Shown here: piece after piece, positions 1,884 through 43,898 of the stretch
How the letters are laid out: every line of letters starts with the position of its first letter
Position numbering within the stretch: the first letter of the stretch is position 1
Virus genome (UHGV): UHGV-0076293
DNA: 64,000 nt
From: a virus
Strand: one strand, 5' to 3'
The notes under the pieces: model-generated
The model's input: the letters and a program-made list of their open reading frames with translations, nothing else
The model's database searches: none
What the model was told of the DNA's origin: nothing
Translations under genes and position numbers: made by a program

Positions 1884-1896
1884 GATAGATATTATC
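1884..1896 (+). promoter_or_regulatory. AT-rich promoter-like element GATAGATATTATC (copy 1), ~30 nt upstream of RNAP beta-like gene
   Basis: Identical 13-mer recurs at 43886-43898, also ~35 nt upstream of a strong RBS/ATG. Confidence 0.3.
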
Positions 1897-1925
1897 CTAC
1901 CGAATCAACCTAAAGGAGCATTAAA

Positions 1926-4166
1926 ATGAAAACGCCAGTTGAGCTATTGAGCAGCGTCGCTGACCGTGAAGTCAATATCGCACAGGTATCAGGTGCAAGG
2001 GCATCGATGGTAGGTAACCATATGAAGTCCTCGGTCCCGATTGACCATCCTGAGCCGTCACCTCACTTTACGGGCGCAGATACCAATTACCACGATTTTC
2101 TGTTTAACGATATTGTGGAAGACAGTGGGAGCATCTGTCATTACACAACTAAGGAAGGTAGACAACGTCGCGCAACGTTTACCCGTTATGGTCGTCGTGG
2201 GGATTCCCGTGCGCTGGAACACGCGATATTCTTCCGTCGTGCAGAATGCCGTATCCCAGGCAAAACAATGATAGACGTCATCGAGATTAACTTTTATACT
2301 AATCACGATAACGTGTTCTCTTCCGAGAAATGGGAATCACCAAAACTGCGCAGTTTGTTACGTGGTGAAACCGACCAGTTAGAAAAGGATGAAATCCTGA
2401 CGACGATGCCGTGCATGGTGGATGGTGAATTCGCAGACAGTGTGGTGCTGCCGACAGTTACCATCTCACACCCAGACATTATCGAGGATTCCTACACGAT
2501 TTCCGAAGAAGCGGCACAGAAGCTTCACGGGTATGGGTTGAAGGTTATCGAGAAAACGTTGCGTGAAGACGAATTCTTACTGGATACCTACGGTTATAAC
2601 GATCCCGAGGGAAATCGTGTACCGCGCTATTTTCCAGACGTGGGTGAAGCAATTCGTGACGACGGCTTAGTTATTGCTTCTCGTCGTTTCGATGACCTGT
2701 ACGCAGCGATTGATGCAACCTTAGGAGAAACCCAACACGTTTCTCCGTTCTTCGATAACTGTGATTACGTGGATGCCGATCCGATACACTATAAAGCACG
2801 TTTGGAAAACAACCACGAACTGATGGAGCGCAGCGGAACACGCATTGTTGATATTCAGGTTTGGCGTGATGAAACGTCATGCGGTAATGGAACGAATAAC
2901 ATTAACTGTACTGAAGAGAACAAACGTGAGCTTGACAAATACGCATTGGCGTTAAAGGACTACTACAATGCGATTGTTCGCTTCTATTTCTCCGTGTCGA
3001 GAGATAAAAACGTTATCTGGTCTCCCAAAGCGTGTGTGTTGCTGGAGAAAGCTTTTGCATCCGAAACGTACGAAGTCTACGCAGAGTTTCGTGAAGAAAT
3101 TCGCGGGGTGATTGAAGACGCAATTCGTCGCGGCGAATACGGTAAAGAGAACGTAAGTCAACAGATTATCTCCAAATTGACTTCACCTGTTCAGCGTGGA
3201 TTAAGCGATCCCATCAATACGTACACAATTCGTATCGCGGTACGTTATCCGATCCCGGTGACGGTGTCTTCTAAGATTACCGACCGTTCGGGTACGAAAG
3301 GGATTGTGGGTCGTGTACTGCCAGTTGAACAGATGCCAATTAACGAGTTCGGCGAACGTGTTCACGTACTACGTTCAATGAACGCCGTAATTCGTCGTTC
3401 TACCTACGCCGCACTGTTCCACATGTATTGGTCAGCAGCATCCGAACAGCTGAAGATGCGTCTTAAACCGATGCTGGATGAAGGACGTATTGGTGAGTGT
3501 TGGGAAATCCTGATGGACTACCTTTCACGCTATAATCCAGAATGGGCGAACACGTTACAGGCTACGCATCCTACGGAGGATTTGCAGCGAGAACTCTTTA
3601 AAGAGATTTACGATTTCACCATCCGCATTTACCTACCTCACGAACTTGATGACACTCCGGTGGAAATCAGTGAACGTTTAGGTGAGTTTAAACCCCGTAA
3701 GTCGAAACTGCTTATTACCAATTACGATGGTAAACAGGAATGGACAAAAGACGAGTTTTACGTGGGTGGTGTAGAAACATTACGGCTTGATAAAACGGGA
3801 CGTGAATTCTCAAGTATTTCGTCGATGTACCTGAACTACCTGGGCACGATCGATGCGTCTAACCAAGGACGTGGTTCGTATCCGGTAAACTATAAAACGC
3901 TAAAATGGGCTGGTCCTTCGGAAGAACGACTATTAGCGGGTTATGGTCCAGGTAACTACGAAGAGGTTCACGATAGGGCAAATAACCCTGCTGTGCATCG
4001 AGAGATTTTAGTAGGGCTGTACCGATCTCAAACTCCTTCCAATCCGGGCGTACTGGTAGACCGGAATAAACTCCCATTAGGAGATTCGCAGATTGACAGA
4101 ATGATGAAAAACATTCACAGCTGTGAAGGGTTTGAATTGGTGAAAATGAAAAGGGGCGAAGAATAA
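1926..4166 (+). CDS. rpoB: multisubunit RNA polymerase beta-subunit-like protein (C-terminal catalytic module)
   Basis: SGTKGIVGRVLPVEQMPINEFGERVHVL..RSMN aligns with bacterial beta [50 protein letters not shown]; 746 aa. Confidence 0.7.
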   Translation: MKTPVELLSSVADREVNIAQVSGARASMVGNHMKSSVPIDHPEPSPHFTGADTNYHDFLFNDIVEDSGSICHYTTKEGRQRRATFTRYGRRGDSRALEHAIFFRRAECRIPGKTMIDVIEINFYTNHDNVFSSEKWESPKLRSLLRGETDQLEKDEILTTMPCMVDGEFADSVVLPTVTISHPDIIEDSYTISEEAAQKLHGYGLKVIEKTLREDEFLLDTYGYNDPEGNRVPRYFPDVGEAIRDDGLVIASRRFDDLYAAIDATLGETQHVSPFFDNCDYVDADPIHYKARLENNHELMERSGTRIVDIQVWRDETSCGNGTNNINCTEENKRELDKYALALKDYYNAIVRFYFSVSRDKNVIWSPKACVLLEKAFASETYEVYAEFREEIRGVIEDAIRRGEYGKENVSQQIISKLTSPVQRGLSDPINTYTIRIAVRYPIPVTVSSKITDRSGTKGIVGRVLPVEQMPINEFGERVHVLRSMNAVIRRSTYAALFHMYWSAASEQLKMRLKPMLDEGRIGECWEILMDYLSRYNPEWANTLQATHPTEDLQRELFKEIYDFTIRIYLPHELDDTPVEISERLGEFKPRKSKLLITNYDGKQEWTKDEFYVGGVETLRLDKTGREFSSISSMYLNYLGTIDASNQGRGSYPVNYKTLKWAGPSEERLLAGYGPGNYEEVHDRANNPAVHREILVGLYRSQTPSNPGVLVDRNKLPLGDSQIDRMMKNIHSCEGFELVKMKRGEE

Positions 4167-6265
4167 TGAAGGCGACTCCGGTTCACGTAAGAGACTTGTG
4201 CAAGTTGAATTCGGATCAGGTGTGGCTACTTCGGGGCGTTTACGACGTGTCCTTCGACGATGGGGTCACGTTGAGAATGTCTGGTCGACACATTAAGTTG
4301 AGCTGGCCGTATTGGGGATTAACCCAGTTTTATCCCCAAGTGCCAATCTCGTCGAACATGGCGTATAAGCATGGCGACACGGCAACTGACGATGCGCATC
4401 TGCGCTTTATGTCGTTGGCAGCTGTAGCAGCACGTAAGGCCGGAGTGGATCTGGCCGATACCCGTTACCTGTTATCACAACACGTTTATGCGAATGCGTT
4501 TAACCTGACGGTGAAAAACCTGTTGTCGTATTGTGTTACCATTGACTACGATACGATGATGGAGATTTATCAGCATGAAAACTTCAAGCTGATTATCGAA
4601 TGGTCTAAACTCTATCCGACGGGTTACGATGAGGAGGGTAACGATAAGGTAGAAGAAGCCTATCAACTCATTGAGAAAATCTTTAAAGATCCGAGACTCT
4701 CAAACAACCCAGTCGTCATGTCTGTGTTAGACCGCACACTGAAAATGGATCAGATTCTCCAGGCTTACATTCGTGGTAAGACTTCAGAGATTGACTCCCG
4801 TGTGTACTCTAACCAGGTATGGGAAGGTTTCTTCACTGGCTTGCATTCTGTTATCAGTCGACTGAAAGAAGCAGGTGCGACATCGCGTTCTCACCTGTAT
4901 AACACCGACAAGATTGCAGACGCAGAGTACGCATCGCGTAAGTTGCAGTTAGCGGCTAACGTGCTGATGTTCTTCGATTACGAAGACTGTGGTACACATC
5001 ACGTACACAGACACACCTTTACGAATTCGCCGTTGGAAGAAGCGAAATTCAAAGCGATGAAAGGAATGCGTTATCGCTTCGAAGGTACTGGTGGTCCGTG
5101 GTTACGATTCGAAGATGGTGAGTTTGAGAAAGTCTTGAACAAACCTATCGAGTTCCGTACCGCGATGTGTTGCAAAGGAATGTCACGACAGACTATCTGT
5201 GCAACGTGTATGGGTGACTTGATTTATAACCTGTCGCCTGGCACGTCACCGGGTCACCTTGCGTCAACCGCAATCTCGGAAAAGGGTACTCAAGGTATTC
5301 TGTCGACGAAACACCTTGACTTCCTGCGTTATCTGCTGAACTTGGTCTTGTCGCCAAGAATGCGTGATTATCTCACGGAGTATAAGCACAACTCCGTTAA
5401 AGGGATTAGTTTACTGGAGAAGCCGCAATACGGTACCTGGGATGAATACCAACTGGTAATTTCGGATGAAGTGTATTCAGAGATTAGCCAGATTGCGTAT
5501 CATGAAGACCTGGACGATATTGATGAAACGGCACTCCCGGAAATTAATGACCTTACGTTTGTTCGTTTAGATGCAGAAGGGAATATACTGGCAGAAGATC
5601 CGATTGACGTTCGAATGGGCGTGTGCGGTAACTTCTCTAAGTCGTTCCTTCGCTTCTTCTTGAAGAATCGTGATAAGCTCGTATTCCCCAGCAAGAAAAC
5701 GGTGCGTGTTCCGCTAAAAGGATGGAAACCGTCCTGGCCGATCCTAATTTATACGAATCGGTCTGAATCTATGGCGGAGTTTGTAGCAGGGTTAGAATTG
5801 ATTTTACGTTCGGTAGCATCGGACAAGTCAGATAACTTCGAACAGTTCTCGGACGAGTCAATGCGTTTGAGCAAGAAGAGTGGTAAGGTTAAACCGATTA
5901 CCCTCGTTCAGATGCGTGGTGCCACGGAAAAACAATGTACTCATGCGTTGTTCTACGTGTTCAAATATATCCAACGTAAGCTCAAAGGGATTCCGATGAC
6001 GCACATCGCGATTATGTTGGCAATCTCTCGTGTTGAGTCACCTACTAACCCATTCCCGGCAGTAGGGTTTGACAGTGAGGATGCCGATGCCGCAGAAGGA
6101 AAACGCTTCGAAGATCACAATACACTGATTGCGATGCGTTCTGCAATCCCGATGTTGTTGTTTGAGGGACAACAGAAGAACTTGGACAACGTACGTTTCT
6201 ATACGTCACGTAAACGTCCTGCTTCGTTGTACGACAATTCTGTCGCAGCAACGATTATTGAGTAA
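4166..6265 (+). CDS. rpoC: multisubunit RNA polymerase beta-prime-like protein (C-terminal module with Zn site and trigger-loop-like motif)
   Basis: CCKGMSRQTICATC (Cx6CxxC) followed ~25 aa later by AISEKGTQGILSTKH, resembling beta-prime C888/C895/C898 and GEPGTQLTMRTFH; ATG overlaps upstream stop (ATGA). Confidence 0.6.
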   Translation: MKATPVHVRDLCKLNSDQVWLLRGVYDVSFDDGVTLRMSGRHIKLSWPYWGLTQFYPQVPISSNMAYKHGDTATDDAHLRFMSLAAVAARKAGVDLADTRYLLSQHVYANAFNLTVKNLLSYCVTIDYDTMMEIYQHENFKLIIEWSKLYPTGYDEEGNDKVEEAYQLIEKIFKDPRLSNNPVVMSVLDRTLKMDQILQAYIRGKTSEIDSRVYSNQVWEGFFTGLHSVISRLKEAGATSRSHLYNTDKIADAEYASRKLQLAANVLMFFDYEDCGTHHVHRHTFTNSPLEEAKFKAMKGMRYRFEGTGGPWLRFEDGEFEKVLNKPIEFRTAMCCKGMSRQTICATCMGDLIYNLSPGTSPGHLASTAISEKGTQGILSTKHLDFLRYLLNLVLSPRMRDYLTEYKHNSVKGISLLEKPQYGTWDEYQLVISDEVYSEISQIAYHEDLDDIDETALPEINDLTFVRLDAEGNILAEDPIDVRMGVCGNFSKSFLRFFLKNRDKLVFPSKKTVRVPLKGWKPSWPILIYTNRSESMAEFVAGLELILRSVASDKSDNFEQFSDESMRLSKKSGKVKPITLVQMRGATEKQCTHALFYVFKYIQRKLKGIPMTHIAIMLAISRVESPTNPFPAVGFDSEDADAAEGKRFEDHNTLIAMRSAIPMLLFEGQQKNLDNVRFYTSRKRPASLYDNSVAATIIE

Positions 6266-6267
6266 AC

Positions 6268-6295: not shown

Positions 6296-6307
6296 TAAGA
6301 GGGGAGC

Positions 6308-11384: not shown

Positions 11385-12236
11385 ATGATTGACATTTATA
11401 CAGATTACGCCGCCGTTCTTACCGTCAATCGTTCGGAGGAACGTGCTGCACCGTTTCTGGATTTAGTCACGCTTTGCATGGACTACGGATACGACGTTGC
11501 GTTAAGTGATGTATACTGGCAACCGTCTTCTGACCCGGCAGACGAAACGGTTCGATTAGAAGGCATTATCGTTAAGTGTGCGGTAGCGTTAGGTAACCGT
11601 CTAGGGATAGCGTTAAATCCCCAGGAAGTTTACCATAAACCCAAAGAAACCGTACGTATTCTGGACGGTATTACTTCCAAGTTTGAAGAGTTTGAAGACA
11701 CCGATACGCTTTATGGTATTGTGATGTCGGGCGAGACGCCGGAATACATTCTGGAAAGTATCTGTCGTTACGTTTACGGTGATGACAATATTCATTTCGA
11801 AGATTTGGTTGTTCGGGTGTCTCCTCGTGTAATGACAGTGATGAGGAACTACCTGTCTTCTGTGACCGTAGACGAACAATTAGCGGCAGGTAACGACAGA
11901 CGTTTGTCACGTATCGCTGATTACCTTCGTTTATATCCTCAAAACCCATCAGCGTTCGTATTCCTTAACTTACCAGACCTGCCTGATTTGACCGTGGTTC
12001 AGCAGTCGCTGGTCTTCGATGTTGAAGACTACACGGAAGCCGAGCTGTTGGAAATGTATGCAGTGGGCTTATCGATTATCGATAACGAGGATTACGAAGA
12101 TGCGTATAGTGCGTTATCAGAGAACTTGGAGAAGCTCAACAACGAAGGGTTAAAACCTATTCCTATCTTGCAACCTGCTCTGGAAAGCTTGAAGGAGATT
12201 TATAAGGTAGCGGAGGAAGATAATGACGAGATTTGA
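11385..12236 (+). CDS. hypothetical protein
   Basis: ORF; first ATG at 11385 (ORF track begins at TTG 11349); acidic C-terminus. Confidence 0.45.
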   Translation: MIDIYTDYAAVLTVNRSEERAAPFLDLVTLCMDYGYDVALSDVYWQPSSDPADETVRLEGIIVKCAVALGNRLGIALNPQEVYHKPKETVRILDGITSKFEEFEDTDTLYGIVMSGETPEYILESICRYVYGDDNIHFEDLVVRVSPRVMTVMRNYLSSVTVDEQLAAGNDRRLSRIADYLRLYPQNPSAFVFLNLPDLPDLTVVQQSLVFDVEDYTEAELLEMYAVGLSIIDNEDYEDAYSALSENLEKLNNEGLKPIPILQPALESLKEIYKVAEEDNDEI

Positions 12237-13524
12237 GTTTCTGGTGGCGGCTTGTAAAGCTGAAGCCTGGCGTCGTTTAGTGTGGCGTATTGCAATATTC
12301 AACATGTCAGTGTTCCCGTCGAAACGTGAAGAACCTGAAGCGTTCGATATTACGTATATTGACGGAATGCCGCACTATTACGCGGTAGAAGATGGGAAAG
12401 GTGATTGGCAGCCCATTACTGATGGCGTGAAAGACCAAGAACTGTTTATTCCCGAAGAACAGTTCGAATTGAAAGTCGATGACTACCCAGGATTAGAAGG
12501 GCCGATTCCTACCACTGTGGGACGTTATATCTTTAACTGGATTGTTATCTGGTATGCGTTTGGTACTCGCTTACCGTATATGGGCGTTTCACAAAACCCA
12601 TTAGAGTATCGTAAAGAGATGCACCGTCGTTGTTTGGATCACGAGACCGATGAACCTGAGAACGAAGGTGCTATTCGTCCGAGCATGATAGAACGCTTTG
12701 TAAGCGGCTTACACGAACTTGCACCGTTAACCGCTGGTATTGCACCAACAGGTACACTTAGAAGCCTTACGGTGCATCCTGATGCGTATAAAATACGTGA
12801 TGCGTTGCTGTTAAAGCATAAGGACGAGTTAGACGACCCAGCAGTGATTGTTAAGATAGAAAAAGCACTGGACGAACTGGATAAACAGTGGTTGTCAGGT
12901 GACCAATCTATCGAGTTCTATAACTCGCCGAAATCACGAATGCGTCGACGTAAGTTGATGTTGATGTACGGGATTGAATCATCTTTCCAGGAAGGGGGTA
13001 ACTATACGTTAATTCCTAACGCACTGGTGGAAGTTGATAAGGCGGGAATGGATAATCTGGTCGCGAAGTTTAACTCTATTCGTGAAGGCTCGTTCTCGCG
13101 TGGTGCAGAAACCGCGAAAGGTGGGGAACAGGTACGTATCATCCAGATGATTTTCCAGAACCACCGAATCGTTGCAGGTGACTGTGGGACGAAACTCACG
13201 CACCCTGTGGTTATCACAAAAGACAACGTAAAACGTTACGTTGGGATGAACGCGATGGTTAATGGGAAGTTAACCTCCCTGACGGAAGAGTTTCTGAATA
13301 GTCAGCTAGGGAAAGTTGTGCGCCTACGCCGACCCATCTTATGTCAATACGGCCACATCGACTGCTGTACTGCGTGCTCCTCCGAAGCGAAAGGTGAAGA
13401 ACCTCGCGCTATCGCGGCGGATATTTCGTCAGCGTTCTCTAACGTTATGTCCGTGGCAATGGCCGCAATGCACGGTAAAGAAACCGTCGTTCAAGAATAC
13501 GATCCGTTGATCCATATCACCTAA
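12223..13524 (+). CDS. hypothetical protein (433 aa)
   Basis: ORF overlapping upstream gene end by 14 nt (translational coupling). Confidence 0.5.
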   Translation: MTRFEFLVAACKAEAWRRLVWRIAIFNMSVFPSKREEPEAFDITYIDGMPHYYAVEDGKGDWQPITDGVKDQELFIPEEQFELKVDDYPGLEGPIPTTVGRYIFNWIVIWYAFGTRLPYMGVSQNPLEYRKEMHRRCLDHETDEPENEGAIRPSMIERFVSGLHELAPLTAGIAPTGTLRSLTVHPDAYKIRDALLLKHKDELDDPAVIVKIEKALDELDKQWLSGDQSIEFYNSPKSRMRRRKLMLMYGIESSFQEGGNYTLIPNALVEVDKAGMDNLVAKFNSIREGSFSRGAETAKGGEQVRIIQMIFQNHRIVAGDCGTKLTHPVVITKDNVKRYVGMNAMVNGKLTSLTEEFLNSQLGKVVRLRRPILCQYGHIDCCTACSSEAKGEEPRAIAADISSAFSNVMSVAMAAMHGKETVVQEYDPLIHIT

Positions 13525-14049: not shown

Positions 14050-14098
14050 GCTTTACCCTACTCCTCTCGGGAGTAGGGTAGCTTTTATTTTTTCTTAG
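14050..14098 (+). repeat. conserved ~45-nt terminator element, copy 1 (ccctactcc-tctcg-ggagtaggg-tagcttttattttttcttag)
   Basis: Near-identical copy at 19417-19465, differing only in loop bases; both between convergent genes. Confidence 0.7.
14056..14094 (+). terminator. intrinsic terminator within repeat copy 1
   Basis: 9-bp stem, 5-nt loop, T-rich tract. Confidence 0.65.
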
Positions 14099-17740: not shown

Positions 17741-19410
17741 GTATGGAAATGACAGCAAACATTGCACAACCGCAATGGAAACTCGACGAACTTCCAACTA
17801 TTATCGAACAGCGAATGGAAGAACGTATCGATTCTGTCAGCCAGCTCAACCTCTACATGCAGCGTAACGAAGCCGATTTGATTTACGGTTCACGTATTAT
17901 CGCGCAGATTGAAGCGATTCTTCGTGAAGTTCGTAAAGCGGGTCTAAACCGCGACGTTGCCGTAGCGACGGAATCTTTGCGTCCGGGCACTATCCCGAAA
18001 GCGGTGCAGAGCATCCTGACGTCGAACTACAGCCGTACTCATCAGAAAGAAACCGTCATCGCGCTAGAGTCTTACGCGAACTTCGGTAAGATCAGTCTTA
18101 TCGTGATGGTAATGATGGGGATTATGAAAATCCTGAACTGGATTATCAGTAACGCTGTACCGTTTGCAGGGGCTGCTGACGTAGATGGGGACGAGTATCG
18201 TGACAAACTCTTAGAGAAGATCGATGCGGTTCCTTTCATTGAACGTCTGAAAATCACCGCGCTGAAAGAAGCGTATATGGACGCGTCGAAGGGACTGAAA
18301 GACGGTGAACTGAATAACCTGGAATTGGCTATTCTGATGGCCGATGAAGTCCTGACGAACATGAACGCAGAAGACCTGTTGAATAAGCTTAGCGCAGCTC
18401 TGGGACGTTCTCCGTTCGTAGGGATGTTTAAAGACTACACGAAACGTCGTCAGAATGAACAGCAGGTTATCCACGATATCCTCGATACGTTGCTGCGTAC
18501 TAATATCGGTTGTGCGGTATTCAGTCAGCAGGTTTGTGACGAAGTGTACAAAGCTTTACCGGCGGACGTTCGTAAAGCAGGTATCAACATTCCTAACGAA
18601 GCGTTCTACCGCCAGATGGGAAGAAACCTGGAGAGCTTCTCCGCAGGGTTAAAACGTTTAGATCAGTCGTTAAAAGACCTCAAGTCGTATTACTTCTCGG
18701 GTGACCGCACGCTGGGTACGGATCAAGAAAACCGCATTAGTGCAACGGGGATCGTTCAAGCACTGGCGTTGCTTAACGGCGAAATTGAAATAGCGTTAAC
18801 CGATTTTGCATCGTGTCGTGGTGCACCGCTACCAACGATAATGGTGAAATCCGATCGTGACTTAATCGGTTATTCGTCTCGAGAGTTCGGTAATGGATTC
18901 ATCATCGCTTCTGCAGGGGTTAACTCGTATTTCGGTTCTGCGGCTAACATGGAAATTATGCGCCAGGAACTGAGCTTTACCAGCGGTGATTCTCGTGAAT
19001 TGTTAGCGTGTCTGATTACGTTAGCTCGCAGCGGGATTACTAAAGGGCCAGCCGATACGTCTATTGACCGCTTCAAAGTGGTGGAGAAACAGATCGAGAA
19101 AGTGGTTAGCCAGTTGAAAGACATGTCACGCCAATCTCGTTCTGGTATGAACAGCAAAGCTTGGCAGATGATGGAACAAGCGTTCCGTGACGAAGCACAA
19201 CGTTCAGATCTGTACGAATTGGGCTTTGGTCGTGAATTGACGACGATGACCGTGATGGACCCAGATCGAAACGTGTGGGATTCTGTTGCGTTTACGACGG
19301 AACTGATTAAGTCCTGGACAACTGCCGCCGGTGCTCTGGCGACGATTCTGAAACGGGCTAAGAACAACCCGCTGGTAAAAGGTGGGAAGTTTAATAAACT
19401 CGTCGATTAA
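17737..19410 (+). CDS. hypothetical protein (557 aa)
   Basis: ORF; start overlaps upstream stop. Confidence 0.5.
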   Translation: MSMEMTANIAQPQWKLDELPTIIEQRMEERIDSVSQLNLYMQRNEADLIYGSRIIAQIEAILREVRKAGLNRDVAVATESLRPGTIPKAVQSILTSNYSRTHQKETVIALESYANFGKISLIVMVMMGIMKILNWIISNAVPFAGAADVDGDEYRDKLLEKIDAVPFIERLKITALKEAYMDASKGLKDGELNNLELAILMADEVLTNMNAEDLLNKLSAALGRSPFVGMFKDYTKRRQNEQQVIHDILDTLLRTNIGCAVFSQQVCDEVYKALPADVRKAGINIPNEAFYRQMGRNLESFSAGLKRLDQSLKDLKSYYFSGDRTLGTDQENRISATGIVQALALLNGEIEIALTDFASCRGAPLPTIMVKSDRDLIGYSSREFGNGFIIASAGVNSYFGSAANMEIMRQELSFTSGDSRELLACLITLARSGITKGPADTSIDRFKVVEKQIEKVVSQLKDMSRQSRSGMNSKAWQMMEQAFRDEAQRSDLYELGFGRELTTMTVMDPDRNVWDSVAFTTELIKSWTTAAGALATILKRAKNNPLVKGGKFNKLVD

Positions 19411-19416: not shown

Positions 19417-19465
19417 AAGTACCCTACTCCTTATCGGGAGTAGGGTAGCTTTTATTTTTTCTTAG
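19417..19465 (+). repeat. conserved ~45-nt terminator element, copy 2
   Basis: ccctactcc-ttatcg-ggagtaggg-tagcttttattttttcttag; stop codon of the convergent minus gene lies inside the repeat, as in copy 1. Confidence 0.7.
19422..19461 (+). terminator. intrinsic terminator within repeat copy 2
   Basis: Hairpin + T-tract. Confidence 0.65.
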
Positions 19466-22416
19466 TCTGCGCTGGTATCGTGACGGTTGTAAGCGATAAC
19501 AATATCGTCTTTCAGACCGATGTCACCACTGGCTTCAATATCCAGTTTCTTACCAATCGTTGCACGTGCAGCTTCGGATACTACAGTAAACAGACGCATG
19601 TCTTTGTCTGGCCCCATCGCATCCAACTCAACGCCGATAATCGACGTGTCAAGCGTTTCGCTGAGCTTATTACCAATCTCTGTTGCCGAGATAGTAAGAT
19701 GTGAACCCAAGTAGTCGTTGATAACTTGAGACGTTTTCTTACGAATCTGCGTTAACAGATCGCTGTTGCTACGGTTAGCCGCAGTCAGGTAATAACGAAC
19801 GGTAAACTGGTTTTCAGCCGGTATCGGCGTAACCACCCCGTCTTCGGTACGTGCATCGATATAACCCATCGTGGTGATAGGAACGAAATACCCTTCCGTA
19901 CGTTCTAACAACATCGGTTTTAACGTCGGTAGAACCACGGTCACGTAGTTAACGATATTCTCAATAACTGCGTTCAGATAGGATTTCGCAGACGCTGTGG
20001 TAGCGAATTTATAACGTGCGTCGAAGACCGCCATTTCACTACGGAACTTAATAGAACGAGATTTCGCAATCTTAGGATTACCGTACTCGTCTTTTACTAA
20101 GTCCCCTTCGTGGTGTAGGATAATCTGCTGGCCGGTTTCGTCAAGCTTAGGATCGCCTTTACGGTGTTCGTAAGTGATTTGTAGCGGTGGTGTACGGCCT
20201 GCGTCGTACGTGTAAACCGGAACCCCATTCTCATCACGTTTCACCACGTCAATTTCCCACGTCGCTAACACGTCTTTGTCGTAATACTCGTAGTTGATGC
20301 TGTCAGTAACAGCACGAGCTTTACGCCAATAGTACGTCATTGCTTTACCCAGTTCGATTTTGAATATCTCGTGAGTAATACCGATAGCGTCACGAGAAGG
20401 CGGTGTGATTAACGCATCCATCTCTACACGTTCGTAGTTCCCAGGGTAATAACCTGTACAACCGTAGAACAGGTTAAAATCTGTCAGCAGTGCGACAGGG
20501 GTTTCCGTTGGGTTACTTCCGTTAATACGGGTGTTGGTCAGTACCAGTTCGTCGTTACGGTCAACGTCCAGGTTAGTTTCCAGCAAGAACTCCCAAACAC
20601 GTTCGCTACCCTGCTTACCGACTAACGTACCGTTAATGTACGCCAAGGTGTTATCGGAATTACGAGGACGGAAAGACAGCTGTGCAAAGACTTGGTCATC
20701 AGCCAGTGCCTGGTAAGGTGCTTCTGACTTCGTAACCGTACGCAGCACATAACCCGCTTCCGTTTTCTCGATAGTGTAGTCAGCAGTAACGACGCTGAGC
20801 TCCGTCGAGACGTTGGTCGCAATAAAGCGTTTAGAGTTTAATACCGGTTTATCCAACTGGTAAATACGTACGTCAATCGCTTTGTTGTTAATGTCAACAA
20901 CGTAATGGAACGGTGTAAACAAATAACGGTTAGTGTTTGCTGCGTTAATCAGGTCTTCCTTACGCATGGTCTTCGCTAACACCGTCATTTCGGCATCTAC
21001 AGTTAGACTGGTATCCGTAAAGCGATAGAGTGTGTCAGGAAGAATGGTCAGGCGATTACCGTTGACTTTCACTGTCGGGAGATTAACCAGCTCGTTCCAG
21101 GAGAAATAGAACGGGGCAGTAATCGTCCCTATCGGTGAACTGACGTTAGCAATCGTCGATTCCAACATCGGTGCTGTCATGAAGTACGTACGACTGGTCA
21201 CGTAGTCGTTAGGTTTAGACAACGTGAGACCGTAATCAGAAACCGTAGCCTCAAGCTGCTTTTCTGTCACGGGCAGTTTACGTGCGCCCACGGCGTTGTT
21301 AACAACGCGAGTACGTAAATCACTGAACGAAAGCTGACTACGGCCACCCGATAGCATCTTCCCAGCTTTTGCTGCAAGCTGTTTAATAGAGAACGCTTTA
21401 ATCGGGTTGATATAGTTCGCGTCGTACTCTTCGTTTAAATCGCGTAGGCTGAAACTATACTCGTCGGACGGATACGCAGAGATGTCCAGCTCCAACGGCC
21501 CTAAGGTCGTATAGACGTCCATCCTGATAGTCCCACTGACGAGATTCTTCGCCATGTAAATAGACGGAATCGTACAACGGATATTGCCGTTACCCACCTG
21601 AATCAATGCCGTTGGTGTGTTCGGGTCGTAAACATCGCGACTGTGAGTGTGTTGAATCTCTACCCACTTGTTGCTGCCCGTTGCCTTCATCCAAACACGA
21701 ACATAGAAGAACTTGTTAGTGTAACTACGCGTCATGACAAACGTGTTGCTACCTTCGACGGTGTTACTTTCTTCTTTTACCGCATACTGCATCACTGGAA
21801 TATGGATAGCCAGCAGCTGTGAAGATGTTGTGTTAGCGGACGTTAGTTCCCATTCCAGTGCGTTCGTGGAAACTGGTGAAATCGGTGATTGTGTTTCAGT
21901 AATCCACAGTACCTGGAAAGCCGGGTTCTCGTTCGTTCCGTACGGGAGTACACGGATTTCAATCGGGTACTGGATAGCAAACGTGTAACCAGAAACCGTA
22001 AAGACCGTGTCACGTGGGATAACGACTTTACGAACCCCCGCGATTTGCAACGGATACGCTTTCGAGATTAAGCTGTCAACGTCAATTAACAGTAACAGTT
22101 CTGTAGTAGCAGGCTGCGCAAAGACGTCAACGTAATCCACGTCTGACATGTGTCGGAACAGGTCATCGTAAGTCTGTGCCATTGACGGGAACGTTTTAGG
22201 AATAGATTCCTGGAGTCCCATCAATGTAGCGTGCCCCATCATTGTTCCCATTTCTGCCAAATAAACGACAGGGTCGGTAGGGTCACGGAGATAAATCTGG
22301 CCATCGGCATCTTCAACATCTTGAAGCTGGTTTAGCAGCATTGTCTGCATCGCCGCAGGGTTGTGTGCGAACAGCAGAAGTTTCTTTGCCAAAGTATCGT
22401 AAGTTGTTGAACTCAT
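19462..22416 (-). CDS. large hypothetical protein (984 aa), likely virion/structural
   Basis: Long ORF; coupled to upstream minus gene (ATGA overlap). Confidence 0.55.
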   Translation of the reverse strand: MSSTTYDTLAKKLLLFAHNPAAMQTMLLNQLQDVEDADGQIYLRDPTDPVVYLAEMGTMMGHATLMGLQESIPKTFPSMAQTYDDLFRHMSDVDYVDVFAQPATTELLLLIDVDSLISKAYPLQIAGVRKVVIPRDTVFTVSGYTFAIQYPIEIRVLPYGTNENPAFQVLWITETQSPISPVSTNALEWELTSANTTSSQLLAIHIPVMQYAVKEESNTVEGSNTFVMTRSYTNKFFYVRVWMKATGSNKWVEIQHTHSRDVYDPNTPTALIQVGNGNIRCTIPSIYMAKNLVSGTIRMDVYTTLGPLELDISAYPSDEYSFSLRDLNEEYDANYINPIKAFSIKQLAAKAGKMLSGGRSQLSFSDLRTRVVNNAVGARKLPVTEKQLEATVSDYGLTLSKPNDYVTSRTYFMTAPMLESTIANVSSPIGTITAPFYFSWNELVNLPTVKVNGNRLTILPDTLYRFTDTSLTVDAEMTVLAKTMRKEDLINAANTNRYLFTPFHYVVDINNKAIDVRIYQLDKPVLNSKRFIATNVSTELSVVTADYTIEKTEAGYVLRTVTKSEAPYQALADDQVFAQLSFRPRNSDNTLAYINGTLVGKQGSERVWEFLLETNLDVDRNDELVLTNTRINGSNPTETPVALLTDFNLFYGCTGYYPGNYERVEMDALITPPSRDAIGITHEIFKIELGKAMTYYWRKARAVTDSINYEYYDKDVLATWEIDVVKRDENGVPVYTYDAGRTPPLQITYEHRKGDPKLDETGQQIILHHEGDLVKDEYGNPKIAKSRSIKFRSEMAVFDARYKFATTASAKSYLNAVIENIVNYVTVVLPTLKPMLLERTEGYFVPITTMGYIDARTEDGVVTPIPAENQFTVRYYLTAANRSNSDLLTQIRKKTSQVINDYLGSHLTISATEIGNKLSETLDTSIIGVELDAMGPDKDMRLFTVVSEAARATIGKKLDIEASGDIGLKDDIVIAYNRHDTSAD

Positions 22417-29125: not shown

Positions 29126-29166
29126 CTCAGATATATATTACCTTAGTGAGATTACGCTGTAATCTT
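29126..29166 (+). promoter_or_regulatory. conserved promoter-like element TCAGATATATATTACCTTAGTGAG (copy 1) followed by inverted repeat GATTAC-gctg-GTAATC
   Basis: Near-identical element at 37380-37404; contains TATATTAC; ~50 nt upstream of ATG 29202. Confidence 0.45.
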
Positions 29167-29201
29167 TTAACGACCTGTTTATTACGTTTAGGAGAATTAT
29201 C

Positions 29202-29843
29202 ATGACACGTTACAATTTAGCTGACTTCTGCGATTGTGCCTTTTCTGTTGAAGGTGACAAACTTGTAATGGCTGCGCCAAACGCAAGAGTCTTATCGTTG
29301 TATCAAGCCGAAGTTATTGCAATTTCGATTTGGTTAGCAAGGGCTATAGACGGCGGCTGTAAGGACCTTGATAAAGAAGTGTTGAAAGTCGGTCGTCGTG
29401 AATTTGTGTATAAAGCAGAAATCCAGAACCGTTTACCACAGACCTTTTTAAGCAGCTTGCTTAAAGATGTCAACACCCCAGTTGTCAGCCGAACATTTGA
29501 CGGGGTGAAATATTACTCTTTTGAAGATTCGCACGTTGCTATCTGTGAAGGCGAGAATAAGTTTTTTACGACCGTTATCTACTTTCGTATTGTTGAACCT
29601 ACGAAAGAAGAACTGGTTTGCAACACTGCGAACGATGTGGCCGGGATGCGTATGGACGATATCACCGGTTCACTATCTGGATTAAATGACATACCGCGTA
29701 TTGTGGAGCGAGTCTTGGAAGGAGACGATTACTTTAAGCTGCTTCCGCTGGTAGCAAGCGAAGAAACAGAACAGGAAAGCGCTTTCATTCAGGTTAACCT
29801 TACCGCTGCGCAGGCGGTAGATCGTTTCTTCGAAGCTTTATAA
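29202..29843 (+). CDS. hypothetical protein (213 aa)
   Basis: ORF with TAGGAGAA RBS. Confidence 0.55.
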   Translation: MTRYNLADFCDCAFSVEGDKLVMAAPNARVLSLYQAEVIAISIWLARAIDGGCKDLDKEVLKVGRREFVYKAEIQNRLPQTFLSSLLKDVNTPVVSRTFDGVKYYSFEDSHVAICEGENKFFTTVIYFRIVEPTKEELVCNTANDVAGMRMDDITGSLSGLNDIPRIVERVLEGDDYFKLLPLVASEETEQESAFIQVNLTAAQAVDRFFEAL

Positions 29844-37379: not shown

Positions 37380-37415
37380 TTCAGATATATATTACTTAGG
37401 TGAGAGAATTACGTA
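37380..37415 (+). promoter_or_regulatory. conserved promoter-like element TCAGATATATATTACTTAGGTGAG (copy 2) followed by palindrome ATTACGTAAT
   Basis: Matches 29126-29150 at 23/24 positions; sits in the longest intergenic gap (37216-37452), ~50 nt before ATG 37453. Confidence 0.45.
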
Positions 37416-37452
37416 ATACTCATTTATCGAATACCTAATTAGGAGCTATATC

Positions 37453-37596
37453 ATGATTTCTGTAAAACACAAAAAAGCTATCTTCGCTGTTGTTATCGCT
37501 GTTGTTCTGGGTTGCCTGTACCTGGATATCGATAAAGGCTACGACACTTGCATCGACAACGGTAATTCCGTTGCGCAGTGCACTGGTCGTGGTTAA
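37453..37596 (+). CDS. small hydrophobic protein (47 aa), possible lipoprotein/membrane peptide
   Basis: Not in ORF track (<60 aa); AGGAG RBS; sequence MISVKHKKAIFAVVIAVVLGCLYLD... with lipobox-like VLGC; own terminator. Confidence 0.45.
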   Translation: MISVKHKKAIFAVVIAVVLGCLYLDIDKGYDTCIDNGNSVAQCTGRG

Positions 37597-40980: not shown

Positions 40981-40993
40981 GGAGCATCCTTAA

Positions 40994-41518
40994 ATGCAAA
41001 TTCGTTTTAGTCCACCGTGGGAAGTTCAGCCTAACATAGATAAAGGCGCTGCCGTTAAAAGTGTAGAATTGCTCCAGGCAGGGTTCTTTAACTGGTTATA
41101 TGACTGTCCGAATGGTTTCAGTTCTATCATCTTACCTGAAGTAAGTCGTTCTGCTATTTATAAAGCGTTAATGGCTCCGCCTGTACTTCCAGGTAAATAT
41201 TATGATCAGGTGTTACGTCTGGTCGAATCAGGCGAAAAGGTTTCCCTTGACGATTTATATGGGGAAACAATTCCTTGTCGCTTACGCTGGGTCTTTACCC
41301 AACGTGGTGATACGATTGTGGCGTCATTTGCAGAAGCGAAGTCCGGTTCGGGTTTTTCTTCGGGTGAAGACCACGCTGCGAAAAAGATGTTCTGCGCAGA
41401 ACTTTTTAAATATATGCGTACCAAGACTCGCGTCGTGGATGACTGCTTCAGTACCTCAACGCAGTTTGCCGCTAACGAAGTGCTGACGCAATTATACGCA
41501 TGTCATTTATCTCATTAA
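40994..41518 (+). CDS. hypothetical protein (174 aa)
   Basis: ORF immediately upstream of putative capsid gene. Confidence 0.45.
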   Translation: MQIRFSPPWEVQPNIDKGAAVKSVELLQAGFFNWLYDCPNGFSSIILPEVSRSAIYKALMAPPVLPGKYYDQVLRLVESGEKVSLDDLYGETIPCRLRWVFTQRGDTIVASFAEAKSGSGFSSGEDHAAKKMFCAELFKYMRTKTRVVDDCFSTSTQFAANEVLTQLYACHLSH

Positions 41519-41530
41519 GGTATTAAACAA

Positions 41531-43816
41531 ATGAAAGATACCCGAATCTCTAATTTAGAGAAACTCGTAGAAGCCGGTACTAGTCTGGCCCAAAACGTCA
41601 TCGGCAACAACACCGCCAGCGAAATGTGGAAGACGATTGTTGCAGGCGAGTCCGTACGTAGCAACGCAAAAGTATTTGGCGCTCTGCGTGACGAAGCATC
41701 ACAGCACTATGCCAACGCTTTTGGCGGCAAGAAAATGTCTCATGCTGCGACCGTCGCTTCCGCAATGATTCTGGGCGTAGCTAACCACGGTAAAGACCTG
41801 CAAGAACGTGTTGCCCAGGAATACGCTAAGCCGGAATTCCACACCAAGTATAACCTGGATATTGGTATCCCTGGTGCGCAAGGTGGTGATTGGGGTCGTG
41901 AGCGTATGGTTGTTGCTCAGGAATACTACAGCAACAAAGACTACGACAAAAACCTGGGCCTGACCTGGACCCTGAACGTACGTGCTCTGGAAACTCAGTC
42001 CAAGTTTGCTGAAACACTGTTCCCGACCATTACCGTTGACACCAACGATGTTGGTATTACCGTACGTACTAAAGTGACTACCGTTTCTCGCGGTATCATG
42101 AACGCGCTGCTGAGCAAAGACGTCGTTGAAGATCATCGTCGTCCGCTGCACAACGCTCTGACTGACCACACCGTTCTCCAGGACGAAGCGATCAACATCG
42201 TTCCTTACGTAATGGAAACCGGTGAAAACCAGGAATACTTCGTAAGCGAAGATCTGGTTCCGAACGAAACCGTTCGCCTGGGCCGTGTACCTCCGTATCC
42301 GACTAACTACCTGAGCTTTGCAAACGACACACTGAACCTGTTCCAGCTGTCTGCGCATCCGGGTATTGTTCAGGAAGGTTACGATGAAACTGATGAAATC
42401 GCACCGGGTTGTGCTCTGGGCAGCCTGCTGATTTCTGTACGTAAACCGGCCGAAGAAGCGAAAGCGGGTAAATTCATCAAACTGCACGTTCGTGACATGC
42501 AGTTCGCAACCTTCCAGCGTCCTGCTGAAGGTGACGGCCGTGAACTGGTTCTGCAATTCCGTCGTACCGCGTTCTCTCTGAATGCGAAAACCACTGACTG
42601 GAAAGGCGACGCTATTCCGGCACTGCAAGCACTGGGCCAGAACTCCTACACCCTGCGCTACGTTATCACCATCACCATGTCCCTGTTCACCAGCGGCCAG
42701 TTCGGTGGTAAAGTAGACATTTCCGGCCACAAACTGGAAATCGAAGGTCTGTACGATGCAACTGGTAACAAAGTTGATACCAAGTCTGGTACCGGTAAAG
42801 TTATCCTGGACGGCCTGAAACTCGAGCTGATGGGCTGGCGCTTCGATGGTACTCGTACCAACGAAAACCGTCGTACCCAGGGTCTGCTGCTTGACCCAAT
42901 TTGGGAACAGGAAAACTACAAACTGCAATACGGTTCTCCGATTCTGACCAAGTCTCCGGTTGGTGTTGAATACGACGACACTGAACGTCTGGATGACCTG
43001 ATCTCTGCGGTGAACATCCGTAACGAACAGCTGGCTATTACTCAGACGCTGTCTTACACTGAAGCAGTACGTAACGCAGCCGCTGCGATGATCACTCCGT
43101 GGGACAAACCGGCTATCCGTGGTCTGGGCCGTCACTGGGTTGCTCCGTGGTTCAAAGAGTCTGACTACAAAGTCGATGAAGTTGTTCAGTCTCTGGATAC
43201 CAAAGAAGCGCTGATCAACGCTCGTCAGGGTCTGTTGCAGCGTATCGGTAGCCAGGTAACTCAGGCTATCCAGGATTCTCGTTTCATTCCTGCACTGCGC
43301 CTGCTGACTGCTGATCCGGACATTCTGCCGAAAGTTATCATCGCAACTGACGAACCGACTGCATCCATGCTGCTGCTGGTTCAGGGCGACCAACGTCTGC
43401 TGGGCGACCGTTATGAATACGAAGTCGTTACCACCAACGATGACCGCTGGCGTATCTACAACGCAGCTGACGATTCCTGGACTCGTCGTCTGCAATGGTT
43501 CCTGAAAGTTCCGACTGCGGACGATGGTTCCTACTGCGTACTGAACTGGGGTAACCACTTCTGGTCTCCGATCATGGTTACCAACATCAACATCCAGCGT
43601 AACGGTTCTACTTCTAAAGAACTGGCTGTACAGCCGCGTAACGCGCATATCTGCCACTGCCCGATCACTGGTCTGATTTGGGTTAAAGGCATCACCAAAC
43701 TGGTTGAAGAAAAACTGGCTTACAACGTTTCTGTAGAACAGAACGGCCAGAAACAAACCGAAGGTGGTGTAGCAGGTAATGTTGCTGGCGACGGTAAAGA
43801 CAAAGCTGGTAAATAA
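41531..43816 (+). CDS. abundant structural protein, putative jumbo-phage major capsid protein (761 aa; tail sheath not excluded)
   Basis: Size matches the ~750-aa capsid proteins of phiKZ-like phages; codon usage appears strongly optimised by eye; own strong terminator; no homology search possible. Confidence 0.45.
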   Translation: MKDTRISNLEKLVEAGTSLAQNVIGNNTASEMWKTIVAGESVRSNAKVFGALRDEASQHYANAFGGKKMSHAATVASAMILGVANHGKDLQERVAQEYAKPEFHTKYNLDIGIPGAQGGDWGRERMVVAQEYYSNKDYDKNLGLTWTLNVRALETQSKFAETLFPTITVDTNDVGITVRTKVTTVSRGIMNALLSKDVVEDHRRPLHNALTDHTVLQDEAINIVPYVMETGENQEYFVSEDLVPNETVRLGRVPPYPTNYLSFANDTLNLFQLSAHPGIVQEGYDETDEIAPGCALGSLLISVRKPAEEAKAGKFIKLHVRDMQFATFQRPAEGDGRELVLQFRRTAFSLNAKTTDWKGDAIPALQALGQNSYTLRYVITITMSLFTSGQFGGKVDISGHKLEIEGLYDATGNKVDTKSGTGKVILDGLKLELMGWRFDGTRTNENRRTQGLLLDPIWEQENYKLQYGSPILTKSPVGVEYDDTERLDDLISAVNIRNEQLAITQTLSYTEAVRNAAAAMITPWDKPAIRGLGRHWVAPWFKESDYKVDEVVQSLDTKEALINARQGLLQRIGSQVTQAIQDSRFIPALRLLTADPDILPKVIIATDEPTASMLLLVQGDQRLLGDRYEYEVVTTNDDRWRIYNAADDSWTRRLQWFLKVPTADDGSYCVLNWGNHFWSPIMVTNINIQRNGSTSKELAVQPRNAHICHCPITGLIWVKGITKLVEEKLAYNVSVEQNGQKQTEGGVAGNVAGDGKDKAGK

Positions 43817-43831
43817 TAACGAATAAAAAGT

Positions 43832-43870
43832 GTCTAAGCCCTTCGGGGCTTAGACCTTTTATTTTTTTCT
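43832..43870 (+). terminator. strong intrinsic terminator (gtctaagccc-ttcg-gggcttagac + long T-run)
   Basis: 10-bp stem, tetraloop, ~14 T-rich nt. Confidence 0.75.
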
Positions 43871-43885
43871 TTCTATTATTTTTTG

Positions 43886-43898
43886 GATAGATATTATC
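43886..43898 (+). promoter_or_regulatory. AT-rich promoter-like element GATAGATATTATC (copy 2)
   Basis: Identical to 1884-1896; ~35 nt upstream of strong RBS (AAAGGAGA) and ATG 43934. Confidence 0.3.

What the first reader, a model, noticed from the sequence alone, without database searches (positions are those of the whole stretch)
1884..43898. Second recurring AT-rich 13-mer GATAGATATTATC upstream of the RNAP beta-like gene and of the gene block after the capsid terminator
An identical 13-mer lies ~30-35 nt upstream of the strong RBS/ATG at 1926 and at 43934. It differs from the TCAGATATATATTAC element, suggesting a second promoter class (different temporal class or polymerase).
Basis: seen in the sequence. 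Interest (0 to 1): 0.4.

Follow-up and report, generated by a model that had tools for sequence, protein, structure and literature searches.

The report
Second early-promoter subclass of jumbo phage
The repeated 13-mer is real and is the conserved core of a promoter-like element placed in front of a giant phage's own (non-virion) RNA polymerase genes. It is an in-register variant of the phage's main early promoter, not an unrelated second signal.

Summary
GATAGATATTATC occurs exactly twice, at 1884 and 43886, both on the + strand. The window comes from a new SPN3US/Erskinevirus-like nucleus-forming jumbo phage.

- **Genes served.** Both copies lie just downstream of a terminator or divergent gene and upstream of operons for non-virion RNA polymerase (nvRNAP) subunits, homologs of phiKZ gp71-73/gp74 and gp123.
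- **Conservation.** The motif is kept at the orthologous sites in phages of six genera. It occurs 6-7 times per genome in Asesino and SPN3US, against 0 in shuffles, always on the + strand.
- **Relation to the other element.** It is in register with TCAGATATATATTAC: GATA[G/T]ATATTA[T/C], with the same A/T-rich upstream flank and the same GTG about 16 nt downstream. That element in turn closely matches phiKZ early (virion-RNAP) promoters.
- **Two stable subclasses.** TTAC sites ("class 1") carry TAGGTGAGA, a 5' hairpin and a leader of about 70 nt. TTATC sites ("class 2", this finding) have short, unstructured leaders. Class is kept at 33 of 34 orthologous comparisons.
- **Class-2 targets in Asesino.** They precede chmA (chimallin) with nvRNAP beta'1, the nvRNAP beta and gp123-like genes, the gp68-like gene (assigned by synteny) and the DNA-polymerase operon.

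The best reading is a second subclass of virion-RNAP early promoter. A different polymerase is unlikely. A different strength or timing is plausible but untested, because no transcription start map exists for this clade.

The parts
1884..1896 (+). Class-2 promoter core GATAGATATTATC (copy A). The extended element runs about 1872-1905, including the upstream TAAA.
   Evidence: Exact match. ATAnATnTTATC is invariant at the orthologous position in 7 phages of 6 genera. Generic matrix score 28.3 bits.
43886..43898 (+). Class-2 promoter core GATAGATATTATC (copy B). The extended element runs about 43874-43907.
   Evidence: Exact match. By leader similarity it is orthologous to the first of two post-capsid sites in SPN3US (72487) and Asesino (73982). 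Generic matrix score 24.9 bits.
1510..1540 (.). Bidirectional intrinsic terminator (arms 1510-1522 and 1526-1538, with an A-tract and a T-tract). It insulates the nvRNAP operon from upstream + strand transcription.
   Evidence: Read from the sequence and the inverted 13-mers. The simple terminator scan did not call it.
1926..4166 (+). nvRNAP beta-like subunit gene (homolog of phiKZ gp71-73), first gene downstream of copy A.
   Evidence: Matches PDB 7OGP chain C at E=1e-30 and AR9 nvRNAP 7S00_C at 3.7e-16. 76.7% aa identity to the Asesino homolog.
4166..6265 (+). nvRNAP subunit gene (homolog of phiKZ gp74), same operon.
   Evidence: Matches PDB 7OGP chain D at E=7e-33.
43832..43866 (+). Intrinsic terminator of the major capsid gene, about 20 nt upstream of copy B.
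   Evidence: Terminator scan: 10-bp stem with 6 GC pairs plus a T-tract.
43934..43984 (+). 16-codon mini-ORF with a Shine-Dalgarno sequence, probably a remnant of a variable gene. It is 27 codons in SPN3US; Asesino annotates gp92 (810 nt) at the same start.
   Evidence: Translation and comparison of the three regions; annotation.
43997..45007 (+). First full gene downstream of copy B (conserved, function unknown, phrog_7286).
   Evidence: ORF list. PHROG hit at E=3e-121. No PDB relative.
45018..46793 (+). nvRNAP subunit gene (homolog of phiKZ gp123), second gene downstream of copy B.
   Evidence: Matches PDB 7OGP chain E at E=9.7e-18.
29130..29142 (+). Used as the comparator.
37384..37396 (+). 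Class-1 promoter core GATATATATTACT, followed by TAGGTGAGA and a weak or ambiguous leader hairpin. Used as the comparator.

Best explanation
The 13-mer is the -10-like core of a second subclass ('class 2', ending TTATC) of the phage's early promoters. The RNA polymerase carried in the virion (vRNAP) reads these promoters immediately after DNA injection.

In the window, copy A restarts transcription after a bidirectional terminator and a divergent gene. It drives the operon that begins with the nvRNAP gp71-73-like and gp74-like genes. Copy B restarts transcription after the capsid-gene terminator. It drives a conserved gene of unknown function followed by the nvRNAP gp123-like gene.

The inferred transcription start lies a few nucleotides downstream of the 13-mer, near the GTG/GA that sits 16-18 nt after the first G. 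This gives a short, unstructured leader of about 25-35 nt.

Class 2 shares overall architecture with class 1, so the same enzyme most likely recognises both. The shared architecture is AAA..TTTCA-GATAnATATTA, and class 1 closely matches the phiKZ early promoter. The class-specific bases (C or T at position 12, and G at position 5 in this lineage) and the class-specific leaders probably set a different strength, timing or mRNA fate.

Shown here:
- the motif, its conservation and its enrichment;
- the two stable subclasses;
- the identity of the downstream genes.

Inferred:
- promoter activity;
- the position of the transcription start;
- which polymerase reads it;
- any kinetic difference between the classes.
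For: - **Conservation.** ATAnATnTTATC is invariant upstream of the nvRNAP beta ortholog in 7 phages of 6 genera. The rest of that 65-74 nt spacer, apart from the Shine-Dalgarno sequence and ATG, is variable.
- **Enrichment.** There are 2, 7 and 6 exact copies in the window, Asesino and SPN3US, against 0 in shuffles. All are on the + strand. 24 of 24 generic-matrix hits in Asesino are on the + strand.
- **Placement.** Sites lie directly after terminators and 42-55 nt before a Shine-Dalgarno sequence plus ATG.
- **Downstream genes.** In the window these are nvRNAP subunits. In Asesino class-2 sites precede:
  - chmA gp039 with nvRNAP beta'1 gp040 (identities from PMC11724907);
  - the gp68-like gene (by synteny);
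  - the nvRNAP beta and gp123-like genes;
  - the operon that holds the DNA polymerase gp35.
- **Literature on vRNAP targets.** vRNAP transcribes chmA and the nvRNAP genes in phiKZ and Goslar (PMC12908238, PMC13282480, PMC10612078, bioRxiv 10.1101/2023.09.20.558163).
- **Homology to phiKZ.** phiKZ early promoters upstream of gp54 and gp68 read aaaaatttgAGATyTATATTACtaa..TG. This is close to class 1, and class 2 is in the same register.
- **No alternative promoter.** No class-1 site lies upstream of any of the four nvRNAP gene clusters (gp40, gp47, gp51-52, gp94) in Asesino. Without class 2, nvRNAP would have no recognisable early promoter.
- **Site count.** Class 1 plus class 2 come to about 21-24 sites per genome, similar to the 28-32 early promoters of phiKZ (PMC8244752).
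- **Distinct subclass.** Positions 5 and 12 covary (p=1.6e-7). Position 12 is associated with GTGAGA (p=3.7e-5). Leader hairpin z-scores average -2.4 for class 1 and +0.1 for class 2 (p=9e-6). Class is kept at 33 of 34 orthologous comparisons, counted by hand.
Against: - No transcription start map, RNA-seq or in vitro transcription exists for any SPN3US-like phage in the library searched. Promoter activity and the reading polymerase are therefore inferred.
- The window itself has only two copies.
- The sites in the different genomes are orthologous, not independent, so the Fisher and Mann-Whitney p-values overstate the effective sample size.
- The G at position 5, part of the 13-mer as reported, is not conserved in Machinavirus and Derbicusvirus. 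Only part of the 13-mer is therefore deeply constrained.
- In phiKZ the orthologous genes gp54 and gp68 use the canonical TTAC form. The class split is thus not universal, and its functional meaning is unknown.
- The genes downstream of class 2 (replication, transcription) resemble the 'middle' genes of other phages.
Confidence: 0.6

Rival explanations
1. Class 2 is a middle or delayed-early promoter. It would be read by nvRNAP, possibly with an extra factor, or by both polymerases in turn. That would give replication and transcription genes prolonged expression, as with the AR9 'continuously expressed' genes.
For: - The class is discrete and evolutionarily stable, with its own leader type.
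- The downstream genes are the replication and transcription set that is 'middle' in many phages.
- In AR9 four of five nvRNAP subunit genes are continuously expressed from tandem early and late promoters (PMC5312081).
- phiKZ gp54 has an early primary and a middle secondary start site (PMC8244752).
- chmA carries two tandem class-2 sites in three genera.
Against: - nvRNAP cannot produce its own first copies, and no class-1 site lies upstream of the nvRNAP genes.
- Class 2 shares register and flanks with the promoter type read by vRNAP.
- The phiKZ middle motif (TACT centred at -22 after an A-rich repeat) and late motif (TATG at -3..+1) are not present in the element (PMC8244752, PMC7598289; sequences).
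Confidence: 0.17
2. There is no functional distinction. TTATC and TTAC sites would be interchangeable, degenerate versions of one early promoter, and the exact 13-mer repeat would simply reflect recent common ancestry of two sites.
For: - The two forms share 10-11 of 13 core positions and the same flanks.
- The class-2 matrix scores class-1 sites as highly as class-2 sites.
- A few intermediates exist: SPN3US 4428 GATAGATATTACC, SPN3US 238182 GATATATGTTATC, and the TCATC variants.
Against: - Position 12 is the same at 33 of 34 orthologous comparisons across genomes whose intergenic flanks have largely diverged.
- Class correlates with a whole leader module, with leader length and with gene set.
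Confidence: 0.13
3. Host sigma-70 RNA polymerase reads the element as an extended -10 type promoter. aGaTATTAT resembles TGnTATAAT, and class 1 lacks the final T.
For: In this lineage positions 7-12 read TATTAT, with a G two bases upstream.
Against: - No -35 partner exists, and the sigma-70 scan gives no hit at either site.
- The base that would be the essential A at -11 (position 8) is G at conserved orthologous sites: GATAGATGTTATC/T in SPN3US and Asesino, and several TGTTAT sites in pEa_SNUABM_38.
- Conservation spans about 25-38 nt, more than sigma-70 needs.
- Chimallivirus transcription is independent of host RNAP, and the injected DNA is enclosed in a vesicle and later in the phage nucleus (PMC13282480, PMC12908238).
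Confidence: 0.04
4. The element is an operator for a phage DNA-binding regulator (GATA-N5-TATC partial palindrome) and not a polymerase recognition element.
For: The 13-mer has 4-nt inverted ends, GATA and TATC. An HTH protein gene lies downstream of a class-1 site in Asesino (gp118).
Against: - The left arm is not conserved at orthologous sites: CATAG.., GACAG.., and AACAT.., CATAT.. in pEa_SNUABM_38. The right part stays conserved, so the palindrome is not under selection.
- The fixed strand and the fixed distance to start codons fit a promoter better.
Confidence: 0.04
5. The repeat is a chance repeat of an AT-rich 13-mer.
For: A 64-kb window contains many repeated 13-mers (212).
Against: The motif is conserved at orthologous sites in six genera, and occurs 6-7 times per genome in relatives against 0 in shuffles.
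Confidence: 0.01

Closest known systems
phiKZ early promoters, read by virion RNAP (Ceyssens 2014; Wicke 2021, PMC8244752; review PMC7598289)
   Same: - AT-rich, -10-like core with an A/T-rich tract upstream.
- About 20-30 sites per genome.
- Located upstream of chmA and the nvRNAP genes.
- phiKZ sites read ..aaatttgAGATyTATATTACtaa..TG, nearly the same as class 1 here. Class 2 is in the same register.
   Different: - Class 2 ends TTATC instead of TTAC and, in this lineage, has G at position 5.
- In phiKZ the chmA and gp68 promoters have the canonical TTAC form.
- No start-site mapping exists here.
AR9 early promoters and the 'continuously expressed' scheme (PMC5312081)
   Same: nvRNAP subunit genes and replication genes form a set with its own promoter arrangement, distinct from that of pure early genes.
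   Different: AR9 achieves this with tandem early and late promoters of unrelated sequence in uracil-containing DNA. Here the distinction is a one- to two-base variant of the same motif plus a different leader.
phiKZ middle promoters (TACT at about -22 preceded by an A-rich repeat; reading polymerase unknown)
   Same: A second, non-late promoter class associated with genes expressed after the very first wave.
   Different: No sequence resemblance. The phiKZ middle class includes the vRNAP subunit genes (PMC10612078), whereas class 2 here precedes the nvRNAP genes.
T7 class II versus class III promoters (recalled from general knowledge, not tested here)
   Same: One phage polymerase and one consensus. 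Subclasses differ at a few positions, serve different gene sets, and differ in strength and timing.
   Different: T7 uses a single-subunit RNAP and an unrelated sequence. This is an analogy of logic only.
Bacterial sigma-70 extended -10 promoters
   Same: The TATTAT hexamer, with a G two bases upstream, in this lineage.
   Different: No -35 element. The position equivalent to -11 is not conserved as A. The conserved block is much longer.

Membership tests
Chimalliviridae / phiKZ-like virion-RNAP early promoter | A highly conserved AT-rich core of about 10 nt that recurs upstream of many operons in one genome | tested here: met
   There are 2 class-2 and 2 class-1 sites in the window, and 21-24 sites per genome in Asesino and SPN3US. 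Shuffles give about 0.
Chimalliviridae / phiKZ-like virion-RNAP early promoter | Sequence similarity to the experimentally defined phiKZ early consensus (AGATyTATATTAC with an upstream A/T tract) | tested here: inconclusive
   Class 1 matches closely. Class 2 matches in register but has T instead of C at the last core position.
Chimalliviridae / phiKZ-like virion-RNAP early promoter | Located upstream of genes known to be vRNAP-dependent (chmA, nvRNAP subunits) | tested here: met
   The window genes are homologs of gp71-73, gp74 and gp123. In Asesino the sites precede chmA gp039 and nvRNAP beta'1 gp040 (PMC11724907).
Chimalliviridae / phiKZ-like virion-RNAP early promoter | Core centred at about -10 relative to a mapped primary transcription start | not testable with these tools
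   No transcription start data were found for SPN3US-like phages.
Chimalliviridae / phiKZ-like virion-RNAP early promoter | Transcription immediately after infection, independent of protein synthesis and of host RNAP | not testable with these tools
   This needs RNA-seq with chloramphenicol and rifampicin, or in vitro transcription with vRNAP.
phiKZ middle promoter | TACT motif centred about 22 nt upstream of the start, preceded by an A-rich repeat | tested here: not met
   No TACT is present in or around the element at either site. An A-rich tract is present but is shared with class 1.
phiKZ late (nvRNAP) promoter | TATG at -3 to +1 | tested here: not met
   No conserved TATG lies between the motif and the Shine-Dalgarno sequence. 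The only TATG at site B is the start codon context.
Bacterial sigma-70 promoter | -35 and -10 hexamers with 16-18 nt spacing, or an extended -10 with conserved A-11 and T-7 | tested here: not met
   The scan finds no sigma-70 site at either copy. Position 8 (the would-be A-11) is G at several conserved orthologous sites.

The most novel reading that the evidence does not exclude
In SPN3US-like chimalliviruses a single C-to-T change at the 3' end of the early-promoter core, together with loss of the structured class-1 leader, defines a genuine second regulatory tier. This tier is dedicated to chmA, the nvRNAP subunits and the replication genes. It could be read by vRNAP only with a co-injected or early factor. 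Alternatively it could be handed over to nvRNAP, forming an autocatalytic loop. On this reading it would be the sequence-defined counterpart of the unexplained 'middle' class of phiKZ.
Probability: 0.2. Interest if true: 0.65.

Novelty: new variant of a known kind. Interest (0 to 1): 0.4.

Why it matters
Which polymerase reads the non-early, non-late genes of nucleus-forming jumbo phages, and how the switch is made, is an open question (PMC10612078). This clade offers two sharply defined promoter variants that have been stable over evolution. They differ at one or two core bases and in their leaders, and they divide the genome into two gene sets:
- chmA, the nvRNAP subunits and the replication genes;
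- other early operons.

That makes the question directly testable with base-swap templates and one time-resolved 5'-end map. In practical terms, the two matrices give a ready promoter annotation for SPN3US-, Erskinevirus- and related phages.

Tried and rejected
- **IMG/VR scan.** An exact-match scan for AGATAGATATTATC returned 120+ loci, mostly unrelated chance hits on a 14-mer. Only the Huxley and phiEaH2 contigs were relevant, so the scan was not used further.
- **Motif strings in the literature.** A search for the motif strings found only unrelated primer sequences.
- **Papers not held.** Three could not be read: Lavysh 2016 Virology (early-motif predictions for phiKZ-like phages), Ceyssens 2014 J Virol, and Weintraub 2019 J Virol (SPN3US time-resolved proteome). 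Supplementary start-site tables for phiKZ are not held either. I therefore cannot exclude that a combined early-motif logo for SPN3US has already been published.
- **PDB sequence searches.** Searches with ORFs 43997-45007, 46833-48443 and 12223-13524 gave nothing useful.
- **Rfam.** No family matches in the window.
- **Hypotheses rejected.** The sigma-70 reading, the palindromic-operator reading and the chance-repeat reading were all examined and rejected. The reasons are given under rival explanations.
Full report
**1. The observation**

GATAGATATTATC occurs exactly twice in the window, at 1884-1896 and 43886-43898, both on the + strand. Copy A ends 29 nt before the ATG at 1926. Copy B ends 35 nt before an ATG at 43934. 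Both ATGs are preceded by AGGAG.

The window contains 212 repeated 13-mers of all kinds. A repeated 13-mer alone is therefore weak evidence, and the case rests on the comparative results in section 4. The ATG at 43934 opens only a 16-codon ORF; the first full gene starts at 43997.

**2. Source genome**

The window is about 72-75% identical in nucleotide sequence to Erwinia phages Stratton and Asesino (Erskinevirus) and to Salmonella phage SPN3US (Seoulvirus). The best protein identity for the gene at 1926 is 76.7%, to Asesino. The window therefore comes from a new lineage of the SPN3US-like nucleus-forming jumbo phages (Chimalliviridae). These phages carry two multisubunit RNA polymerases:
- a virion enzyme (vRNAP), injected with the DNA, that reads early promoters;
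- a non-virion enzyme (nvRNAP), made from early genes, that reads later genes (PMC7598289, PMC13282480, PMC12908238).

**3. What lies around the two copies**

Copy A:
- The ORF at 1926-4166 matches phiKZ gp71-73 in the solved nvRNAP structure (7OGP_C, E=1e-30).
- The ORF at 4166-6265 matches gp74 (7OGP_D, E=7e-33).
- Upstream lie a divergent minus-strand gene (1539-1862) and a perfect bidirectional terminator at 1510-1538. The operon therefore needs its own promoter.

Copy B:
- It lies about 20 nt after the T-tract of the major-capsid-gene terminator (43832-43855).
- It precedes a conserved gene of unknown function (43997-45007) and the gp123-like nvRNAP subunit gene (45018-46793; 7OGP_E, E=9.7e-18).

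Both copies thus precede nvRNAP subunit operons.

**4. Conservation and enrichment**

- At the position orthologous to copy A, Stratton, Asesino, SPN3US and Kwan carry AGATAGATATTATC. Huxley has GAATATATATTATC and pEa_SNUABM_38 has GCATATATGTTATC.
- In the alignment of the seven spacers, ATAnATnTTATC is invariant. Otherwise only the Shine-Dalgarno sequence and ATG are conserved.
- After the capsid terminator, Asesino and SPN3US each have two copies. The leader of window copy B aligns with the first of these, and the second is missing from the window.
- Genome-wide, the exact 13-mer occurs 7 times in Asesino and 6 times in SPN3US, against 0 in 30 dinucleotide shuffles each. All copies are on the + strand.
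- Nearly all copies lie 42-55 nt before a Shine-Dalgarno sequence and the ATG of an annotated gene.
- A matrix built only from Asesino and SPN3US sites finds exactly four hits in the window, at 24.9-32.2 bits. Nothing else scores above 8 bits.

**5. Relation to the 'first' motif**

TCAGATATATATTAC (29127 and 37381) and the 13-mer align without gaps:
- class 1: GATATATATTAC[C/T]
- class 2: GATAGATATTATC

They share an upstream AAA..TTTCA flank and a GTG 16 nt after the first G (consensus lines). The class-2 matrix scores the class-1 sites as highly as the class-2 sites.

phiKZ early promoters upstream of gp54 (chimallin), gp58.1, gp68 and gp76 read aaaaatttgAGATyTATATTACtaa..TG. Class 1 is therefore clearly the counterpart of the experimentally defined vRNAP promoter, and class 2 is a variant of it.

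**6. The two forms are nevertheless discrete classes**

The figures below come from 62 sites in four genomes.
- Position 5 against position 12 gives G/T 34, T/C 17, T/T 10 and G/C 1 (Fisher p=1.6e-7).
- C at position 12 goes with GTGAGA downstream (p=3.7e-5).
- Class-1 leaders fold into a 5'-proximal hairpin, with mean z of -2.37 against shuffles. Class-2 leaders do not, with mean z of +0.12 (Mann-Whitney p=9e-6).
- The distance from motif start to ATG is 66-79 nt for 16 of 17 class-1 sites and mostly 42-55 nt for class-2 sites.
- At orthologous positions the class is kept in:
  - 20 of 20 Asesino-SPN3US pairs;
  - 4 of 4 window sites;
  - 9 of 10 comparisons with the more distant pEa_SNUABM_38.
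  I counted these by hand.
- In pEa_SNUABM_38 the G at position 5 is not conserved. The deep discriminator is therefore TTAC against TTAT.

These sites are related by descent, so the p-values overstate independence. The stability of class at orthologous sites whose flanks have diverged is the stronger argument.

**7. Gene sets**

In Asesino, class-2 sites precede:
- chmA gp039 with nvRNAP beta'1 gp040 (identities from PMC11724907), served by tandem sites;
- the gp68-like gene (by synteny with phiKZ);
- the nvRNAP beta genes gp51-52;
- gp93 and the gp123-like gene gp94;
- the operon holding DNA polymerase gp35, among others.

Class-1 sites precede other operons, many of them made of small hypothetical genes. 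No class-1 site lies upstream of any nvRNAP gene.

vRNAP is reported to transcribe chmA and the nvRNAP genes in phiKZ and Goslar (PMC12908238, PMC13282480, bioRxiv 10.1101/2023.09.20.558163). nvRNAP also cannot make its own first copies. The most economical reading is that vRNAP reads class 2 as well.

**8. Rival explanations**

- *Middle-type promoter read by nvRNAP or by both enzymes.* This is not excluded. AR9 nvRNAP genes are 'continuously expressed', and phiKZ gp54 has an early and a middle start (PMC5312081, PMC8244752). Two points count against it. It does not solve the bootstrapping problem, and the phiKZ middle (TACT at -22) and late (TATG) motifs are absent.
- *Neutral degeneracy of a single promoter.* This is contradicted by class stability and by the class-specific leaders.
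- *Host sigma-70.* This is contradicted by three points:
  - there is no -35 element;
  - G occupies the would-be -11 position at conserved sites;
  - conservation extends over about 25-38 nt.
- *Palindromic operator.* The left arm is not conserved across orthologs.

**9. Verdict**

The element is a second, discrete promoter subclass, but it belongs to the same family as the first motif and is most probably read by the same virion polymerase. It is dedicated to the genes that build the second polymerase, the phage nucleus and the replication apparatus.

No start-site data were found for this clade, so activity, start site, polymerase and kinetics remain inferences. I could not read the paper that predicted early motifs across phiKZ-like phages. 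A merged logo may therefore already be published, but I found no description of the split into two subclasses.

Noticed in passing
window 29130-29202 and 37384-37455; Asesino and SPN3US class-1 sites: Class-1 promoters come with a complete conserved leader. It consists of TAGGTGAGA, a 5'-proximal hairpin whose sequence differs between sites and orthologs while pairing is kept, an AATCGACyATTA-like box, and then the Shine-Dalgarno sequence. Motif start to ATG is 66-79 nt in 16 of 17 sites. The leader might stabilise early mRNAs or mark them for export. Rfam has no match.
   Followed up: partly
window 14053-14098 and 19421-19466: Two nearly identical bidirectional terminators lie between convergent genes. 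Each reads TACCCTACTCC-loop-GGAGTAGGGTA followed by GCTTTTATTTTTTCTTAGT. This is a repeated terminator module.
   Followed up: no
window 43934-43996: The Shine-Dalgarno sequence plus ATG after copy B heads only a 16-codon ORF. The same start heads 27 codons in SPN3US, and Asesino annotates gp92 (810 nt) there. The second post-capsid class-2 site of SPN3US and Asesino is absent from the window. This suggests gene decay or a deletion that fused the first promoter to the downstream operon.
   Followed up: partly
Asesino 16338 and 16430; SPN3US 15615 and 15708; pEa_SNUABM_38 15079 and 15156 (L123, L128, L138): The chimallin gene chmA is preceded by two tandem class-2 sites about 80-90 nt apart in all three genera, with a long leader. 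phiKZ gp54 is reported to have both a primary and a secondary start site.
   Followed up: no
Asesino 25973, SPN3US 25227, pEa_SNUABM_38 24491: A class-2 site lies inside the 3' part of the gp68-like gene, about 300 nt before the next gene. It is conserved in three genera together with part of the following sequence (ctcaagcataccgtg in Asesino and pEa_SNUABM_38; only partly in SPN3US). It is probably an internal promoter.
   Followed up: no
Asesino 162910, SPN3US 161920, pEa_SNUABM_38 55791; phiKZ L137 about 18050-18080: A minor third variant of the core ends in TCATC or TCAT. phiKZ has AGATCTATATCAT upstream of gp70.1/gp71 (nvRNAP beta).
   Followed up: no
whole window: The phage is not in the phage collection searched. 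The closest relatives are about 72-75% identical in nucleotide sequence, and the nvRNAP beta protein is 76.7% identical to that of Asesino. It is probably a new species or genus of SPN3US-like chimallivirus.
   Followed up: partly
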